IMG/VR virus record: IMGVR_UViG_3300025133_000106
Length of the DNA: 61,666 nucleotides
From: a virus
Reading direction: 5' to 3' (one strand)
Shown here: positions 40,944 through 46,468 of the stretch, one piece after another
Layout of the letters: the number at the start of each line of letters is the position of its first letter
Position numbering within the stretch: position 1 is the first letter of the stretch
Made by a program: the position numbers and the translations under genes
The notes under the pieces: model-generated
Told to the model about the DNA's origin: nothing
The model's input: only the letters and a program-made list of their open reading frames with translations
Databases searched by the model: none

Positions 40944-42248
40944 ATGGCAGCAGTATCTTCTTATACAGTCCGTGGACTGGTTGACGCACTTAAATTTCTT
41001 GACACTCGCCAATCGGCACTTATTCGTGGGGCCCATGGAATCGGTAAATCAGCAATTGCTTATCAAATGGCGCGGGTTTGGGGTAATCTTCCGGTTATTG
41101 AACGCCGTGTATCGCAGCTAAGCGAGGGTGATATTATTGGTCTTCCTGACAGGGGTGCGGTAAAGTCACCTAAGGATGGCCTAACGTCCGAACAAATGAT
41201 GATGTCTGAGTATGACGAGGAGCTTGGTGGGTTTCGTGTTACGAAATTTCTTCCACCTGACTGGTTTCTCGAGGCTCAACTTCGGCCTTGCGTACTATTT
41301 CTTGATGAAATTAACCGTGGCACACCTGAAGTGCAGAATGCTGCATTCGAGCTTGTTGAGAAAGGCCGCCTAAATGGGCGTACGGTCCATGAAGGAACAC
41401 GGATCATCGCAGCTGTAAATTTCTCTAAGGAGTATAATGTTACGCAGATGGATCCTGCATTCATCGATCGGTTCTGGGTTGCAGATCTTGAACCTGATCT
41501 CAAAGATTGGACGGACTGGGGCCGCTCATCTGAAGGGATGACCGATGAGCAAAGAGAGATGTACGGAAATCAGTGGGTTTGTAATGAAGTCATTGACTTT
41601 ATTTCGCAGTGTAATGAAGGCCATTTTGAAGTTAAACCAGAAAAAGCGGCCCAGATGGATGCTACGGAAATTACACCATCTCGTCGTTCCTGGCATAAGG
41701 TAAGTGACCATCTTATCCGTAATCGCGGAAATCTAGGTCGTCTTATCGATCAACAACCGGATATTATTTATGCTGTAATGAAGGGCTTCGTCGGTGCGAC
41801 TCCAGCTCGAGCATTTAGCCAATTCATGGAGCAACAAGATGCAATCCTCACTCCTGAGGAGCTACTTAAGGATGCGCACCGCGCTGAGAAGAGAATTAAG
41901 GCACTGCGTCCAGAAGAGTCTGTTTCGCTTGTAGACAAGCTTAATGCTTACGTTGAGAAAGATGATCTCGCTCTAACGGTTCCGCAAGCAAAGAACCTTG
42001 CATTCGTAATGAAGACATTACCTGATGAAATTAGCTTTGTACTATTCAACGGCATCATTAACTCGAGCCTTAACAACGCCAAGGTTTTCTACCCTGAAGC
42101 CGGTCCACACTTTATGCGGATGTTGGCTACGACAAAGATCGGGGAAAAGATGCCCGGCATCGCAGACCTAGCAAAAAAGCACCTTCTTACTGACGGTGAT
42201 GCTGAACCGGCAACCGAAACTGCTGAAGACAATGAAGTAACGGAGTAA
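40944..42248 (+). CDS. MoxR-family AAA+ ATPase (AAA_5)
   Basis: Walker A IRGAHGIGKSAIAY, Walker B VLFLDEINR, sensor/arginine region; acidic C-terminus. Confidence 0.75.
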   Translation: MAAVSSYTVRGLVDALKFLDTRQSALIRGAHGIGKSAIAYQMARVWGNLPVIERRVSQLSEGDIIGLPDRGAVKSPKDGLTSEQMMMSEYDEELGGFRVTKFLPPDWFLEAQLRPCVLFLDEINRGTPEVQNAAFELVEKGRLNGRTVHEGTRIIAAVNFSKEYNVTQMDPAFIDRFWVADLEPDLKDWTDWGRSSEGMTDEQREMYGNQWVCNEVIDFISQCNEGHFEVKPEKAAQMDATEITPSRRSWHKVSDHLIRNRGNLGRLIDQQPDIIYAVMKGFVGATPARAFSQFMEQQDAILTPEELLKDAHRAEKRIKALRPEESVSLVDKLNAYVEKDDLALTVPQAKNLAFVMKTLPDEISFVLFNGIINSSLNNAKVFYPEAGPHFMRMLATTKIGEKMPGIADLAKKHLLTDGDAEPATETAEDNEVTE

Positions 42249-43682
42249 ATGATGGCGGATGATAAGCTTGCCACTGAGGAACTAGACGAAAAACTTAAAG
42301 AAGCTTATCATAAGCTTGAAGAAGAAGCCGAGGCTTTTAAGGCAAGGTTTAAGGCGTCAGAGAAATTTGATTTGACACCTCACCTTATTGACTTGGGGTG
42401 GGATGAACCATTTTTTGGTTCATTGAGCCGGCGTGTACATAAGCATCGTACGATTGATATACCAACTGCAGGTGTGCGGTATTCTGGTAAAATGATCCAA
42501 ATGCTTTGGAACCCTATATTCTTTAATGAGCTTGGAAGCGCCTCTCACGAAAATGTATACTCTGTGCACAGAGATCATACACGGGGTATTTTGAAGCATG
42601 AGTTTTATCATCTGATCTTTGAACATATCACAAGCCGGATTCGGACACCTCATGTTCTTTGGAACATCGCAACGGATTTGGCGATTAATTCTCTAATTCC
42701 TAGAAACGAGTTGCCTGATTTCGTGCTCCATGCAGGAGAGTTAAATAAGCCATCCGATGCTTTACCGGATTATGAACCTGGTGTAATCGCTGAGTTGGTC
42801 GCTTCTTTCCCTAGAAATAAATCGTCAGAATGGTACATGGATCAACTTATGAATGATCCAAAAGTGCAAGAAGCTATGGACAAAGCTCGAGCCAAAGCTG
42901 CTGGTGAGGGTGGTGATCAACCGGGCGACGGCAGCGGTAGTGCTTTTGATAAAGCACTTCGTGATGAATTAAGCCCAGGGGGCCAATTCGACAATCATGA
43001 TGGCTGGGGTGATGTCTCAGATGCAGAAAAAGACAGATTACGAGAGCATATGAGAGATGTTCTTCGTGAGTGTGTTAAAGAGGCAGAGCGATCCACAAAG
43101 GGTTGGGGTAGTGTTCCTTCCGACATTCAATCTTATCTAAAAAAACTTGTTTCGAATGAAGTTGATTGGCGAGATTTGATATCTCAATTTATTGGTCGCA
43201 GCAGATCATCGCAAACGACATCAACGTACAAGTCGGTAAATAGACGGCAGCCCTTTGATATACCTGGTCGAAAAAGGAGATACACTGCAACACCAGCATT
43301 AGCTCTTGACCAGAGTGGGTCAATGTCCAATGACTGGATTGAAATGCTTTACGCAGAGATGTCAAATCTAGGCAATTTAACATCATATGATATCTTGCCT
43401 TTTGACACAGAGATAGATGAGGAAAACATCCAGACGGTCCGGAGAAACCAACAACCGGAAACAATCCGGACGAAATCAGGTGGTACTGATTTCGCAGCTC
43501 CGGTTAACTATGTAAACGATCGCCCAGGCAAGTACGATTGCTTATTTATTTTAACAGATGGTGGTTGTGGCGAGCCACCGAAATGTGACATTCCTGTTGC
43601 ATATATCCTTGCGCCCGGCTGTGAAATGTATGGTGATTTTCCAGCGACTGTCATTAAGATGACTGATACACGCAAGGAGTAG
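42249..43682 (+). CDS. HExxH metallopeptidase-like / VWA-domain protein (MoxR partner)
   Basis: HEFYHLIFEH (HExxH+H); C-terminal VWA MIDAS LALDQSGSMSND ... FILTDGG; ATGA coupling with the MoxR gene. Confidence 0.65.
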   Translation: MMADDKLATEELDEKLKEAYHKLEEEAEAFKARFKASEKFDLTPHLIDLGWDEPFFGSLSRRVHKHRTIDIPTAGVRYSGKMIQMLWNPIFFNELGSASHENVYSVHRDHTRGILKHEFYHLIFEHITSRIRTPHVLWNIATDLAINSLIPRNELPDFVLHAGELNKPSDALPDYEPGVIAELVASFPRNKSSEWYMDQLMNDPKVQEAMDKARAKAAGEGGDQPGDGSGSAFDKALRDELSPGGQFDNHDGWGDVSDAEKDRLREHMRDVLRECVKEAERSTKGWGSVPSDIQSYLKKLVSNEVDWRDLISQFIGRSRSSQTTSTYKSVNRRQPFDIPGRKRRYTATPALALDQSGSMSNDWIEMLYAEMSNLGNLTSYDILPFDTEIDEENIQTVRRNQQPETIRTKSGGTDFAAPVNYVNDRPGKYDCLFILTDGGCGEPPKCDIPVAYILAPGCEMYGDFPATVIKMTDTRKE

Positions 43683-43688
43683 GTTATA

Positions 43689-46411: not shown

Positions 46412-46426
46412 TAACTAGCTAGCTTA

Positions 46427-46468
46427 AAAGGGATCTATGATTTTTTATCATAGATCCCTTTTTTGTGT
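46427..46468 (+). terminator. rho-independent terminator
   Basis: aaaagggatctatga-ttttt-tcatagatccctttttt: perfect 15-bp stem + T tract. Confidence 0.7.

What the first reader, a model, noticed from the sequence alone, without database searches (positions are those of the whole stretch)
40944..46468. MoxR AAA+ ATPase, HExxH/VWA protein and a major-vault-protein-like gene as one terminated unit
Three translationally coupled or closely spaced genes sit between a triple-repeat upstream element and a textbook terminator at 46427-46468. The first is a MoxR/AAA_5 ATPase with Walker A GIGKS and Walker B LFLDE. The second carries an HExxH motif (HEFYHLIFEH) N-terminal to a VWA/MIDAS domain (DQSGSMS). 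The third is an 858-aa protein whose organisation matches major vault protein: MVP-type N-terminal beta-repeat strands, an SPFH-like middle, and a ~150-aa heptad helix. MoxR-VWA pairs are established two-component remodelers (CbbQ/CbbO, NorQ/NorD, RavA/ViaA), and they also recur as the core of NTP-dependent conflict systems with a variable third partner. A vault-like shell protein as that third partner, on a phage genome, has not to my knowledge been described. It could form a large proteinaceous cage or compartment in the infected cell, with MoxR/VWA driving its assembly or loading.
Basis: partly seen in the sequence, partly recalled or inferred. Interest (0 to 1): 0.9.

Follow-up and report, generated by a model that had tools for sequence, protein, structure and literature searches.

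The report
Phage vault protein beside unrelated chaperone pair
A jumbo phage really does carry a full-length relative of the major vault protein, the shell of the eukaryotic vault particle. The ATPase and VWA genes next to it are a separate, widespread phage module that sits beside it only in this small phage lineage, and phage vault-protein genes have already been reported.

Summary
All three genes exist as described. 40944-42248 is a MoxR/AAA_5 ATPase. 42249-43682 is a zincin (HExxH) plus VWA protein of the DUF2201 family. 43835-46411 is a genuine major vault protein (MVP) homologue: Pfam MVP_shoulder 3.8e-19, Vault_3 2.5e-8, family profile vs human MVP 4e-30, Foldseek vs rabbit, human and rat MVP 5e-26 to 7e-22.

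The claim that they form one three-gene system is not supported.
- A hairpin of -24 kcal/mol with a U-rich tail lies between the VWA and MVP genes, and MVP has its own 152-nt leader.
- In five related phages, 1-6 kb of variable genes separate the pair from MVP.
- In the sister group the pair directly abuts the RadA-like gene, so MVP occupies a variable insertion slot.
- 0 of 163 other MVP loci (80 viral contigs, 2 huge phages, 81 bacterial) have either partner within 10 kb.
- The MoxR-VWA pair is tightly linked in many phages that lack MVP, such as N4-like and rV5-like phages.

Both modules are already in the literature: the pair in jumbo phages in 2021, phage MVPs in a 2023 preprint. What remains interesting is that MVP is common in large phages, apparently acquired more than once, and its function is unknown.

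The parts
40703..40907 (+). Three direct copies of a 34-nt motif (TGTGTTAATTG-N9-CGTAATAnTATAAA), about 86 nt apart, in the 259-nt region upstream of the MoxR gene. Each copy reads as TGTTAA-17 nt-TAnTAT. They may be tandem promoters or operator sites; this is inference.
   Evidence: repeat and alignment of the units; no further copies in the 61.7-kb window and none expected by chance; the motif is absent upstream of the MoxR gene in relatives L002 and L003.
40944..42248 (+). MoxR-type AAA+ ATPase (434 aa) with Walker A GAHGIGKS and Walker B VLFLDE.
   Evidence: sequence. Pfam AAA_5 at 2.4e-8; phrog_1297 'ATPase' at 1.8e-47; relatives in 267 phage records.
42249..43682 (+). Zincin-like metallopeptidase (HEFYH) fused to a VWA domain (DQSGSMS). 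It belongs to the DUF2201 family (N4 gp25-like) and is the cochaperone partner of the ATPase. Its start abuts the ATPase stop codon.
   Evidence: DUF2201_N at 2.4e-15 and DUF2201 at 3.8e-6; phrog_1314 at 5.4e-44; 190 phage records; a MoxR gene lies directly upstream in 12/12 and 44/51 related loci.
43689..43720 (+). G+C-rich hairpin (12-bp stem, 8-nt loop) 7 nt after the VWA stop codon, followed by CGUAAUCUUUUAUAUUUCUUUU. It is probably a full or partial terminator that closes the two-gene operon.
   Evidence: -24 kcal/mol, z = -5.3, and 0 of 200 shuffles fold as well.
43744..43773 (+). Promoter-like site (TTGTAA-18 nt-TAAAAT) in the 152-nt leader of the MVP gene. This is a consensus match only.
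   Evidence: every relative also has a 105-320-nt non-coding leader before its MVP gene.
43835..46411 (+). Major vault protein homologue (858 aa). Layout: N-terminal beta-repeat domains (about residues 10-390); a poorly modelled insert (392-459); the last vault repeat (463-513); the shoulder/SPFH domain (523-630); a cap helix (633-782); a C-terminal helical tail.
46426..46468 (+). Intrinsic terminator after the MVP gene (16-bp stem, 5-nt loop, T run).
   Evidence: -24.8 kcal/mol, z = -8.4; a strong hairpin, followed by a T run in L002 and L003, lies at the same position in relatives L002-L004.
46851..47684 (+). RadA/Sms-like RecA-fold ATPase (277 aa). It is not part of the claimed trio, but it is the gene that directly follows the MoxR-VWA pair in sister-group phages. 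It therefore marks the far side of the slot that MVP occupies.
   Evidence: TIGR00416 RadA at 5.4e-25, below the cut-off.; in L185 the order is MoxR 986-2065, VWA 2305-3693, RadA-like 3727-4476.

Best explanation
Two independent modules lie side by side.

Module 1 (40944-43682) is a translationally coupled MoxR AAA+ ATPase plus a peptidase-VWA cochaperone. This pair is old and tightly linked, and it occurs in many phage groups. By analogy with characterised MoxR-VWA pairs, the VWA/MIDAS domain would capture a client protein, the ATPase ring would remodel it, and here the fused HExxH domain would probably cut it. The client is unknown. It is probably not MVP, because the pair is conserved in many phages that lack MVP.

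Module 2 (43835-46411) is a stand-alone bacterial-type MVP gene. It has its own leader and its own terminator. It sits in a variable slot between the pair and a RadA-like gene. Its closest relatives outside the clade are MVPs of Myxococcota.

The most likely mechanism is that the protein self-assembles into a vault-like shell in the infected cell, through its shoulder domain and 150-aa cap helix, without a dedicated ATPase. Eukaryotic MVP assembles in this way.

Shown: the genes, their domains, the homology, the linkage patterns and the hairpins. Inferred: the transcription units, self-assembly, and any role in infection. The most plausible role is a cage that sequesters or shields something.
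For: MVP identity:
- Pfam MVP_shoulder and Vault_3 score above their cut-offs.
- phmmer and the family profile hit solved MVPs collinearly, at 5.7e-10 and 4.3e-30.
- Foldseek gives full-length hits to 12 MVP chains at 5e-26 to 7.5e-21, against 1e-7 or weaker for SPFH proteins.

Independence of the modules:
- A -24 kcal/mol hairpin with a U tract and a 152-nt leader separate the VWA and MVP genes.
- In clade relatives, 3 to about 19 other genes lie between VWA and MVP. In L003 a block of five reverse-strand genes follows MVP.
- In sister loci L183-L185 the order is MoxR, VWA, RadA-like with no MVP. L182 has four small ORFs in that slot.
- 0/83 viral and other loci and 0/80 bacterial MVP loci carry a DUF2201 gene within 10 kb. 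One of the 80 has a weak AAA hit.
- Apart from shadow ORFs inside the MVP gene itself, no neighbouring gene family is shared by more than 10 of 88 MVP loci.

The pair as its own module:
- MoxR lies directly upstream of VWA in 12/12 IMG/VR loci and 44/51 metagenome loci.
- Relatives occur in 267 and 190 phage records that lack MVP, such as N4-like, rV5-like and PA5oct phages.
- PMC7824862 describes the pair.

Origin: in the neighbour-joining tree and the identity ranking, the clade falls among Myxococcota MVPs (51% identity) rather than among most viral MVPs (48% or less).
Against: - The three genes are adjacent, on the same strand, and lie within 6 kb of each other in all six clade members seen. 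A clade-specific functional link therefore cannot be excluded.
- The hairpin after the VWA gene has an interrupted U tract and could allow read-through.
- Co-occurrence was tested only within +/-10 kb, not across whole genomes.
- Assembly of any bacterial or phage MVP into a cage has never been shown; no such paper was found.
- The model has low confidence over residues 213-460.
- The tree is a rough neighbour-joining tree, and the bacterial sample was chosen for similarity to the query.
Confidence: 0.72

Rival explanations
1. The three genes form one system: the MoxR ATPase and the peptidase-VWA protein assemble, mature or load a phage-encoded vault cage.
For: - The genes are adjacent on one strand in the window.
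- All five related phage loci keep MoxR, VWA and MVP within about 6 kb and in the same order.
- MoxR-VWA pairs are known maturation factors for large complexes (established knowledge; PMC7824862 cites tail assembly in an archaeal virus).
- From my own knowledge, as a lead only: the minor eukaryotic vault proteins PARP4 and TEP1 carry vWA or vWA-like domains and an NTPase domain.
Against: - There is no co-location in 163 MVP loci outside the clade.
- The pair occurs without MVP in the sister group and in hundreds of phages.
- A terminator-like hairpin and a separate leader precede MVP.
- The genes inserted between the pair and MVP vary among relatives.
- Synteny among close relatives is expected whether or not the genes work together.
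- Eukaryotic MVP needs no ATPase to assemble.
Confidence: 0.08
2. The MVP homologue does not make a closed vault. It forms another kind of SPFH-type assembly, such as an open ring or dome on the membrane, as HflK/C or prohibitin do. In that role it would organise or protect a membrane-associated process during infection.
For: - Pfam Band_7 gives a weak hit at 0.0045.
- The phage and bacterial N-terminal region aligns to human MVP with an offset of about one repeat, and there is an extra insert at residues 392-459. The geometry may therefore differ from the 39-fold eukaryotic barrel.
Against: - The alignment to MVP is collinear over the full length and includes the MVP-specific N-terminal repeats, which membrane SPFH proteins lack.
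- Reading the translation by eye, I saw no long hydrophobic stretch at the N-terminus, where membrane SPFH proteins have their anchor. No transmembrane prediction was run.
- The cap helix is about 150 aa long, against about 155 aa for the rat cap helix (from my own knowledge of the rat vault structure).
Confidence: 0.15
3. The MVP gene is a recently captured bacterial gene that is inert or decaying, with no role in the phage.
For: - Its nearest relatives outside the clade are bacterial.
- It sits in a variable insertion slot.
Against: - The ORF is intact and full length in all six clade members, at 52-55% identity, although these genomes range from 40 to 57% G+C.
- The gene's G+C content (45%) is close to that of its phage neighbours (44-47%) and far from Myxococcota (about 70%).
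- The gene keeps its own leader and terminator in the relatives.
- At least 82 IMG/VR viral contigs carry intact homologues.
Confidence: 0.03

Closest known systems
Eukaryotic major vault protein (rat, human and rabbit MVP; PDB 4V60, 9BW5, 9Z4W)
   Same: The domain order and overall size match: N-terminal beta repeats, the SPFH-like shoulder, a cap helix of about 150 aa, and a C-terminal tail. Sequence, profile and fold matches are all significant.
   Different: - Sequence identity is only about 16-17% in the structural alignments.
- The N-terminal part aligns with an offset of about one repeat, and there is an extra poorly ordered insert at residues 392-459.
- The NAD+/ADP-ribose 'keyhole' pocket described for human MVP is not conserved. 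Its residues are R504, K506, R507, P508, H509, R511, D521, F522 and W545 (PMC12280208). The phage sequence reads GKPKTTDSL at the loop and keeps only the two lysine positions.
- Within the window, Rfam finds no vault RNA, and none of the proteins scanned against Pfam matches a PARP or TROVE (TEP1-type) domain.
- Assembly is untested.
Bacterial MVP homologues of Myxococcota and other gliding bacteria (Daly 2013, PMC3762200; Sokolskyi 2019, bioRxiv 10.1101/872010)
   Same: These are the closest relatives outside the clade, at 45-51% identity over the full length with the same Pfam architecture. They too are stand-alone genes with no conserved partner.
   Different: Here the gene is carried by a phage genome of 40% G+C rather than a bacterial chromosome of about 70% G+C.
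Phage MVPs of gut Caudoviricetes ctOa11 and ct2Ri15 (Santos et al. 2023, bioRxiv 10.1101/2023.11.10.566534), and the predicted vault protein of Borg elements (PMC12660748)
   Same: In both cases an MVP homologue is encoded on a virus or a giant mobile element and is closest to bacterial MVPs, with no known function. For the phage MVPs, no TEP1 or PARP4 homologue was found either.
   Different: - This is a different phage lineage, a jumbo phage with a 308-kb contig.
- Those records were not retrieved by tblastn in the phage collection used here, so their relationship to this gene was not measured.
- That preprint reports different neighbouring genes in its two phages and mentions no ATPase or VWA gene.
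MoxR AAA+ plus metallopeptidase-vWA pair of jumbo phages (Iyer et al. 2021, PMC7824862) and N4 gp24/gp25-like genes (PHROGs 1297 and 1314)
   Same: The two-gene architecture is the same: an AAA_5 ATPase directly upstream of a protein with an N-terminal HExxH domain and a C-terminal VWA domain.
   Different: Identity to cultured-phage versions is only 22-29%. The function is unproven everywhere; a role in virion assembly and processing is a proposal.
MoxR-vWA ternary conflict systems (VMAP, iSTAND and FtsH types; Kaur et al. 2020, PMC7159879)
   Same: They share a MoxR ATPase and a vWA protein as the core.
   Different: - Their third components are VMAP, iSTAND or FtsH proteins, and the paper does not mention vault proteins.
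- Their vWA proteins carry C-terminal effector domains, whereas this one has an N-terminal peptidase.
- The three-gene neighbourhood is not conserved here.
- PADLOC gives no hit.

Membership tests
Major vault protein (MVP) | Shoulder domain (Pfam PF11978) | tested here: met
   3.8e-19, 69.3 bits against a cut-off of 25, residues 523-630 covering profile positions 2-116 of 118.
Major vault protein (MVP) | N-terminal vault repeats | tested here: met
Major vault protein (MVP) | Long cap helix after the shoulder, and full-length collinearity with eukaryotic MVP | tested here: met
   helix over residues 633-782; query 464-806 aligns to MVP 465-837; 834-953 aligned columns with 12 MVP chains, E = 5e-26 to 7.5e-21.
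Major vault protein (MVP) | Self-assembly into a closed barrel of two 39-mer halves | not testable with these tools
   No multimer prediction or experiment was possible. No published assembly of a bacterial or phage MVP was found.
Major vault protein (MVP) | Company of the vault minor components (vault RNA, TEP1, PARP4) | tested here: not met
   Rfam finds only a tRNA in the window; the window proteins scanned against Pfam (the trio and ten other large ORFs) give no PARP or TROVE hit. Only the 61.7-kb window was examined. This feature defines the particle, not the MVP protein.
MoxR-class AAA+ ATPase | AAA_5-type ATPase core with Walker A and Walker B motifs | tested here: met
   (GAHGIGKS, VLFLDE). 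AAA_5 at 34.5 bits against a cut-off of 22.
MoxR-class AAA+ ATPase | Encoded next to a VWA-domain partner | tested here: met
   The genes abut at 42248/42249. The adjacency is conserved in 12/12 and 44/51 related loci.
DUF2201 peptidase-VWA cochaperone (N4 gp25-like) | N-terminal HExxH domain (PF13203) plus C-terminal VWA-like domain (PF09967) with a DxSxS motif | tested here: met
   57.3 bits against a cut-off of 23.2, and 27.5 bits against a cut-off of 26.4. HEFYH and DQSGS; phrog_1314 at 5.4e-44. Catalytic activity was not tested.
MoxR-vWA ternary conflict system (Kaur et al. 2020) | A third component (VMAP, iSTAND or FtsH) in a conserved, mobile three-gene neighbourhood | tested here: not met
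   The third gene is MVP, which is none of those three types. The neighbourhood is not conserved. PADLOC gives no hit.
Single operon of three genes | No internal terminator or promoter, and tight spacing conserved in relatives | tested here: not met
   A hairpin at 43689-43720 with a U tract and a 152-nt leader lie upstream of MVP. Spacing in relatives ranges from 1 to 6 kb, with other genes in between. No transcript data are available.

The most novel reading that the evidence does not exclude
In this one jumbo-phage clade, the captured bacterial MVP builds vault-like cages in the infected cell. The neighbouring MoxR ATPase and peptidase-VWA protein have been recruited to mature, open or load those cages. 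This would be a prokaryotic counterpart of the vWA- and NTPase-bearing minor vault proteins of eukaryotes.
Probability: 0.07. Interest if true: 0.85.

Novelty: new member of a known kind. Interest (0 to 1): 0.4.

Why it matters
The function of vaults has been an open question since 1986. An MVP that a phage keeps and expresses during infection could offer a simple, genetically tractable setting in which to ask what the shell does. This work adds three points to the one preprint on phage MVPs:
- The gene is common in large phages. At least 82 IMG/VR contigs carry it, 46 of them longer than 100 kb, and so do the 462-kb and 735-kb huge phages.
- It is spread across phages of 22-67% G+C.
- It has probably been exchanged with bacteria more than once.

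The work also removes a tempting but unsupported idea, the ATPase-VWA-vault 'system', so that experiments can focus on MVP alone.

Tried and rejected
- Nucleotide search of the region against 50,697 phage records found no match.
- PADLOC and NCBIfam gave no hit for any of the three proteins.
- PDB sequence searches with the ATPase and with the VWA family found nothing usable.
- I looked for a conserved partner of MVP by clustering all ORFs within +/-10 kb in 88 loci. Only shadow ORFs inside the MVP gene recur.
- I looked for a vault-RNA-like or Y-RNA-like gene. Rfam finds only tRNA-Val.
- I tested whether the human MVP NAD+/ADP-ribose pocket is kept, which would have suggested an NAD-related role. 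It is not kept.
- I tested whether the triple repeat is a general promoter motif of this phage. It is not found elsewhere in the window or upstream of the MoxR gene in relatives L002 and L003. Tandem Repeats Finder does not report it.
- BFVD viral structures contain no clear MVP, only SPFH proteins.
- The afdb50 library was unavailable.
- G+C content gives no sign of recent transfer of MVP compared with its neighbours.
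Full report
**1. What is in the sequence**

The region holds three + strand ORFs at exactly the stated coordinates.

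- **40944-42248 (434 aa)** has Walker A GAHGIGKS and Walker B VLFLDE. It matches Pfam AAA_5 (2.4e-8) and phrog_1297 'ATPase' (1.8e-47).
- **42249-43682 (477 aa)** starts at the base after the first gene's stop codon. It carries HEFYH and DQSGSMS. It matches DUF2201_N (2.4e-15), the DUF2201 VWA-like domain (3.8e-6) and phrog_1314 (5.4e-44).
- **43835-46411 (858 aa)** matches MVP_shoulder (3.8e-19, 69 bits against a cut-off of 25) and Vault_3 (34.4 bits against 28.8). It matches Vault only below threshold.

The flanking elements are also real.

- The upstream triple repeat consists of three 34-nt copies at 40703, 40789 and 40874.
- The terminator at 46426-46462 folds at -24.8 kcal/mol, z = -8.4.

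It folds at -24 kcal/mol (z = -5.3), lies 7 nt after the VWA stop codon, and is followed by a U-rich tract. After it comes a 152-nt leader with a promoter-like site. Read directly, the sequence therefore suggests two units: MoxR-VWA, and MVP on its own.

**2. Is the third gene really a vault protein?**

Yes. Four independent lines agree.

- phmmer against all PDB sequences finds only MVP. The hit to the rat protein has E = 5.7e-10, and query 464-806 aligns to MVP 473-837, covering the last repeat, the shoulder and the cap helix.
- A profile of 48 family members hits human MVP at 4.3e-30. A weaker collinear stretch also aligns in the repeat region.
- An AlphaFold2 model (mean pLDDT 69.8) is high in confidence over residues 10-210 and 460-780 and low over 213-460. 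It shows beta-rich N-terminal modules, an SPFH-like shoulder and a single helix over 633-782.

There are differences from the eukaryotic protein.

- Identity is about 17%.
- The N-terminal part aligns with an offset of roughly one repeat.
- Residues 392-459 form an extra, poorly modelled insert.
- The NAD+/ADP-ribose pocket of human MVP is not conserved.
- The helix shows no clear heptad period.

**3. Genomic setting**

An identical protein lies on a 308,593-bp contig. The window also encodes:

- a GroEL-like chaperonin, rIIA and rIIB;
- a sigma-70-type factor and a DNA ligase;
- a tRNA-Val.

All large ORFs are on one strand. This is a non-structural region of a jumbo phage. No cultured phage is close at the DNA level. 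The only tblastn hits for MVP among 50,697 phage records are the huge uncultured phages LR756500 (462 kb) and LR756501/LR756503 (735 kb), at about 40% identity.

**4. Are the three genes a unit?**

*Close relatives.* The close relatives have MVP 52-55% identical, lie on contigs of up to about 170 kb, and range from 40 to 57% G+C. Where the locus reaches far enough, they keep the order sigma factor, MoxR, VWA, MVP, RadA-like ATPase. The content between VWA and MVP varies.

- L003 has three small genes there.
- L002 has a 105-aa gene, a 743-aa AAA protein and four small genes.
- L004, L005 and L181 have about 6 kb with about 19 small genes.
- In L003, MVP is followed by a block of five reverse-strand genes before the RadA-like gene.
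- In every relative checked (L002-L004), MVP has its own 105-320-nt leader and a strong hairpin after it, followed by a T run in L002 and L003.

*The next-closest VWA genes* (36-38% identity) give the most informative comparison.

- In L183, L184 and L185 the order is MoxR, VWA, RadA-like, with a gap of about 34 nt and no MVP. In L185 the genes are at 986-2065, 2305-3693 and 3727-4476.
- L182 has four roughly 100-aa ORFs in that position.

MVP therefore occupies a variable insertion slot next to an older conserved block.

*Wider sampling.*

- Of 80 IMG/VR viral loci with MVP, two huge-phage loci and one 503-kb bacterial contig, none has a MoxR or DUF2201 homologue within +/-10 kb. This holds for tblastn at 1e-3 and for clade HMMs at E <= 1.
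- Of 80 bacterial loci, mostly Myxococcota and drawn from 349 matches in the species-representative genomes, none has a DUF2201 gene. One has a weak AAA hit 7.5 kb away.
- Clustering all neighbouring ORFs shows no real gene family shared by more than 10 of 88 MVP loci.
- MoxR sits directly upstream of the VWA gene in 12/12 IMG/VR loci and 44/51 testable metagenome loci. MVP is present in 0/12 and in 1/29, and that one locus is a clade member.
- Relatives of the ATPase and of the VWA protein occur in 267 and 190 phage records (N4-like, rV5-like, Campylobacter, Vibrio and PA5oct-like phages). None of those records carries MVP.

The pair is a real, tightly linked module. MVP is a real, autonomous gene. 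Their adjacency here is specific to this lineage.

**5. Origin of the MVP gene**

In a neighbour-joining tree of 164 MVPs, the window's clade nests among Myxococcota sequences. The best matches, at 51% identity, are a Nannocystaceae MAG and a Myxococcota MAG. It does not group with most viral MVPs, which are 48% identical or less. Viral MVP loci span 22-67% G+C. This points to several exchanges between bacteria and phages.

Two caveats apply. The tree is rough, and the bacterial sample was chosen for similarity to the query. The gene's G+C content (45%) matches its phage neighbours and not Myxococcota, so the capture is not recent.

**6. Mechanism**

*MoxR-VWA pair.* The most likely mechanism is a chaperone with a built-in protease. 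The VWA/MIDAS domain binds a client, the AAA+ ring remodels it, and the HExxH domain cleaves it. Iyer et al. proposed a role in virion assembly and processing for this pair in jumbo phages (PMC7824862). Nothing here tests that proposal. Its constant neighbour in the sister group is a RadA-like ATPase, not MVP.

*MVP.* The most likely mechanism is self-assembly into a vault-like shell through the shoulder domain and the cap helix, as in eukaryotes, without a dedicated ATPase. [quoted passage not shown] That pattern fits a constrained shell wall. The role in infection is unknown. A sequestering or shielding cage is the best guess and is inference only.

**7. Comparison with what is known, and novelty**

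- Bacterial MVPs are known (PMC3762200; bioRxiv 10.1101/872010).
- Phage MVPs were reported in silico for two gut phages. That preprint notes differing neighbours and mentions no ATPase or VWA gene (bioRxiv 10.1101/2023.11.10.566534).
- Borg elements have a predicted vault protein (PMC12660748).
- The MoxR-vWA ternary conflict systems use other third components, and that paper never mentions vaults.
- No experimental work on bacterial or phage vault assembly was found.

This is a new member of known kinds. The added value is the breadth of MVP in large phages and the negative result on the proposed trio.

**8. Verdict**

- The identification of MVP is right.
- The 'three-gene vault system' is not supported; I put it at about 7-8%.
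- Interest is moderate at 0.4. Phage MVPs remain an attractive and untested route to vault function, but neither component is new, and the proposed link between them is most likely an accident of gene order.

Noticed in passing
window 40690-40943: The three roughly 86-nt units upstream of the MoxR gene share a 47-nt core (ATTGAAAATTAAnTGTGTTAATTGnGAyT..CGTAATAnTATAAA). The core occurs nowhere else in the window and is not found upstream of the MoxR gene in relatives L002 and L003. It lies about 740 nt downstream of a phage sigma-factor gene. It could be a set of tandem phage-specific promoters or operators.
   Followed up: partly
window 35583-37448: A 621-aa protein has six MopE-type metal-binding repeats (4e-39) and a sub-threshold VWA domain, so it is a second VWA protein 3.5 kb upstream of the region. 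A 585-aa MopE-repeat protein lies at the equivalent place in relative L003.
   Followed up: no
window 32241-33902; L002 1-133; L003 4230-4553: The phage encodes a GroEL-like chaperonin (phrog_5725, 3.6e-153). Relatives carry an Hsp20 gene just upstream of the sigma factor. This stretch of the genome is rich in chaperone-type genes: GroEL, Hsp20 and MoxR.
   Followed up: no
window 46851-47684; L183-L185: A RadA/Sms-like RecA-fold ATPase directly follows the MoxR-VWA pair in sister-group phages (gap of about 34 nt in L185). The conserved block may really be three genes: MoxR, VWA and the RadA-like ATPase.
   Followed up: partly
window 43835-46411, residues 392-459: The insert that AlphaFold cannot model still contains invariant or nearly invariant residues across 48 family members (R396, G398, S400, E401, G402, R406, P448, R449). 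It is probably not a mere linker. It may fold on assembly or bind a ligand.
   Followed up: no
L003 13122-20290 (minus strand): Three large genes of similar size (791, 792 and 801 aa) with no Pfam hit, together with genes of 148 and 264 aa, form a reverse-strand block inserted right after the MVP terminator in one relative.
   Followed up: no
BFVD entry A0A3G5A4K1 (Harvfovirus sp., 802 aa): A giant-virus 'prohibitin domain-containing protein' aligns with the model over 930 columns (E = 8.8e-9). It may be an MVP-like protein in a eukaryotic giant virus.
   Followed up: no
window 665-1693 and 4082-5074: There are two NAD-dependent sugar-nucleotide epimerase/dehydratase genes (Pfam Epimerase 5.7e-41 and 3.5e-50). 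They suggest that the phage encodes sugar-modification functions.
   Followed up: no
window 56135-59222: A tRNA-Val (anticodon TAC) lies immediately upstream of rIIA-like (663 aa) and rIIB-like (335 aa) genes.
   Followed up: no
L009-L088 (IMG/VR): MVP-carrying viral contigs are mostly large: 46 of 80 exceed 100 kb and 18 exceed 200 kb. They span 22-67% G+C, so the gene is spread across jumbo phages of very different hosts.
   Followed up: partly
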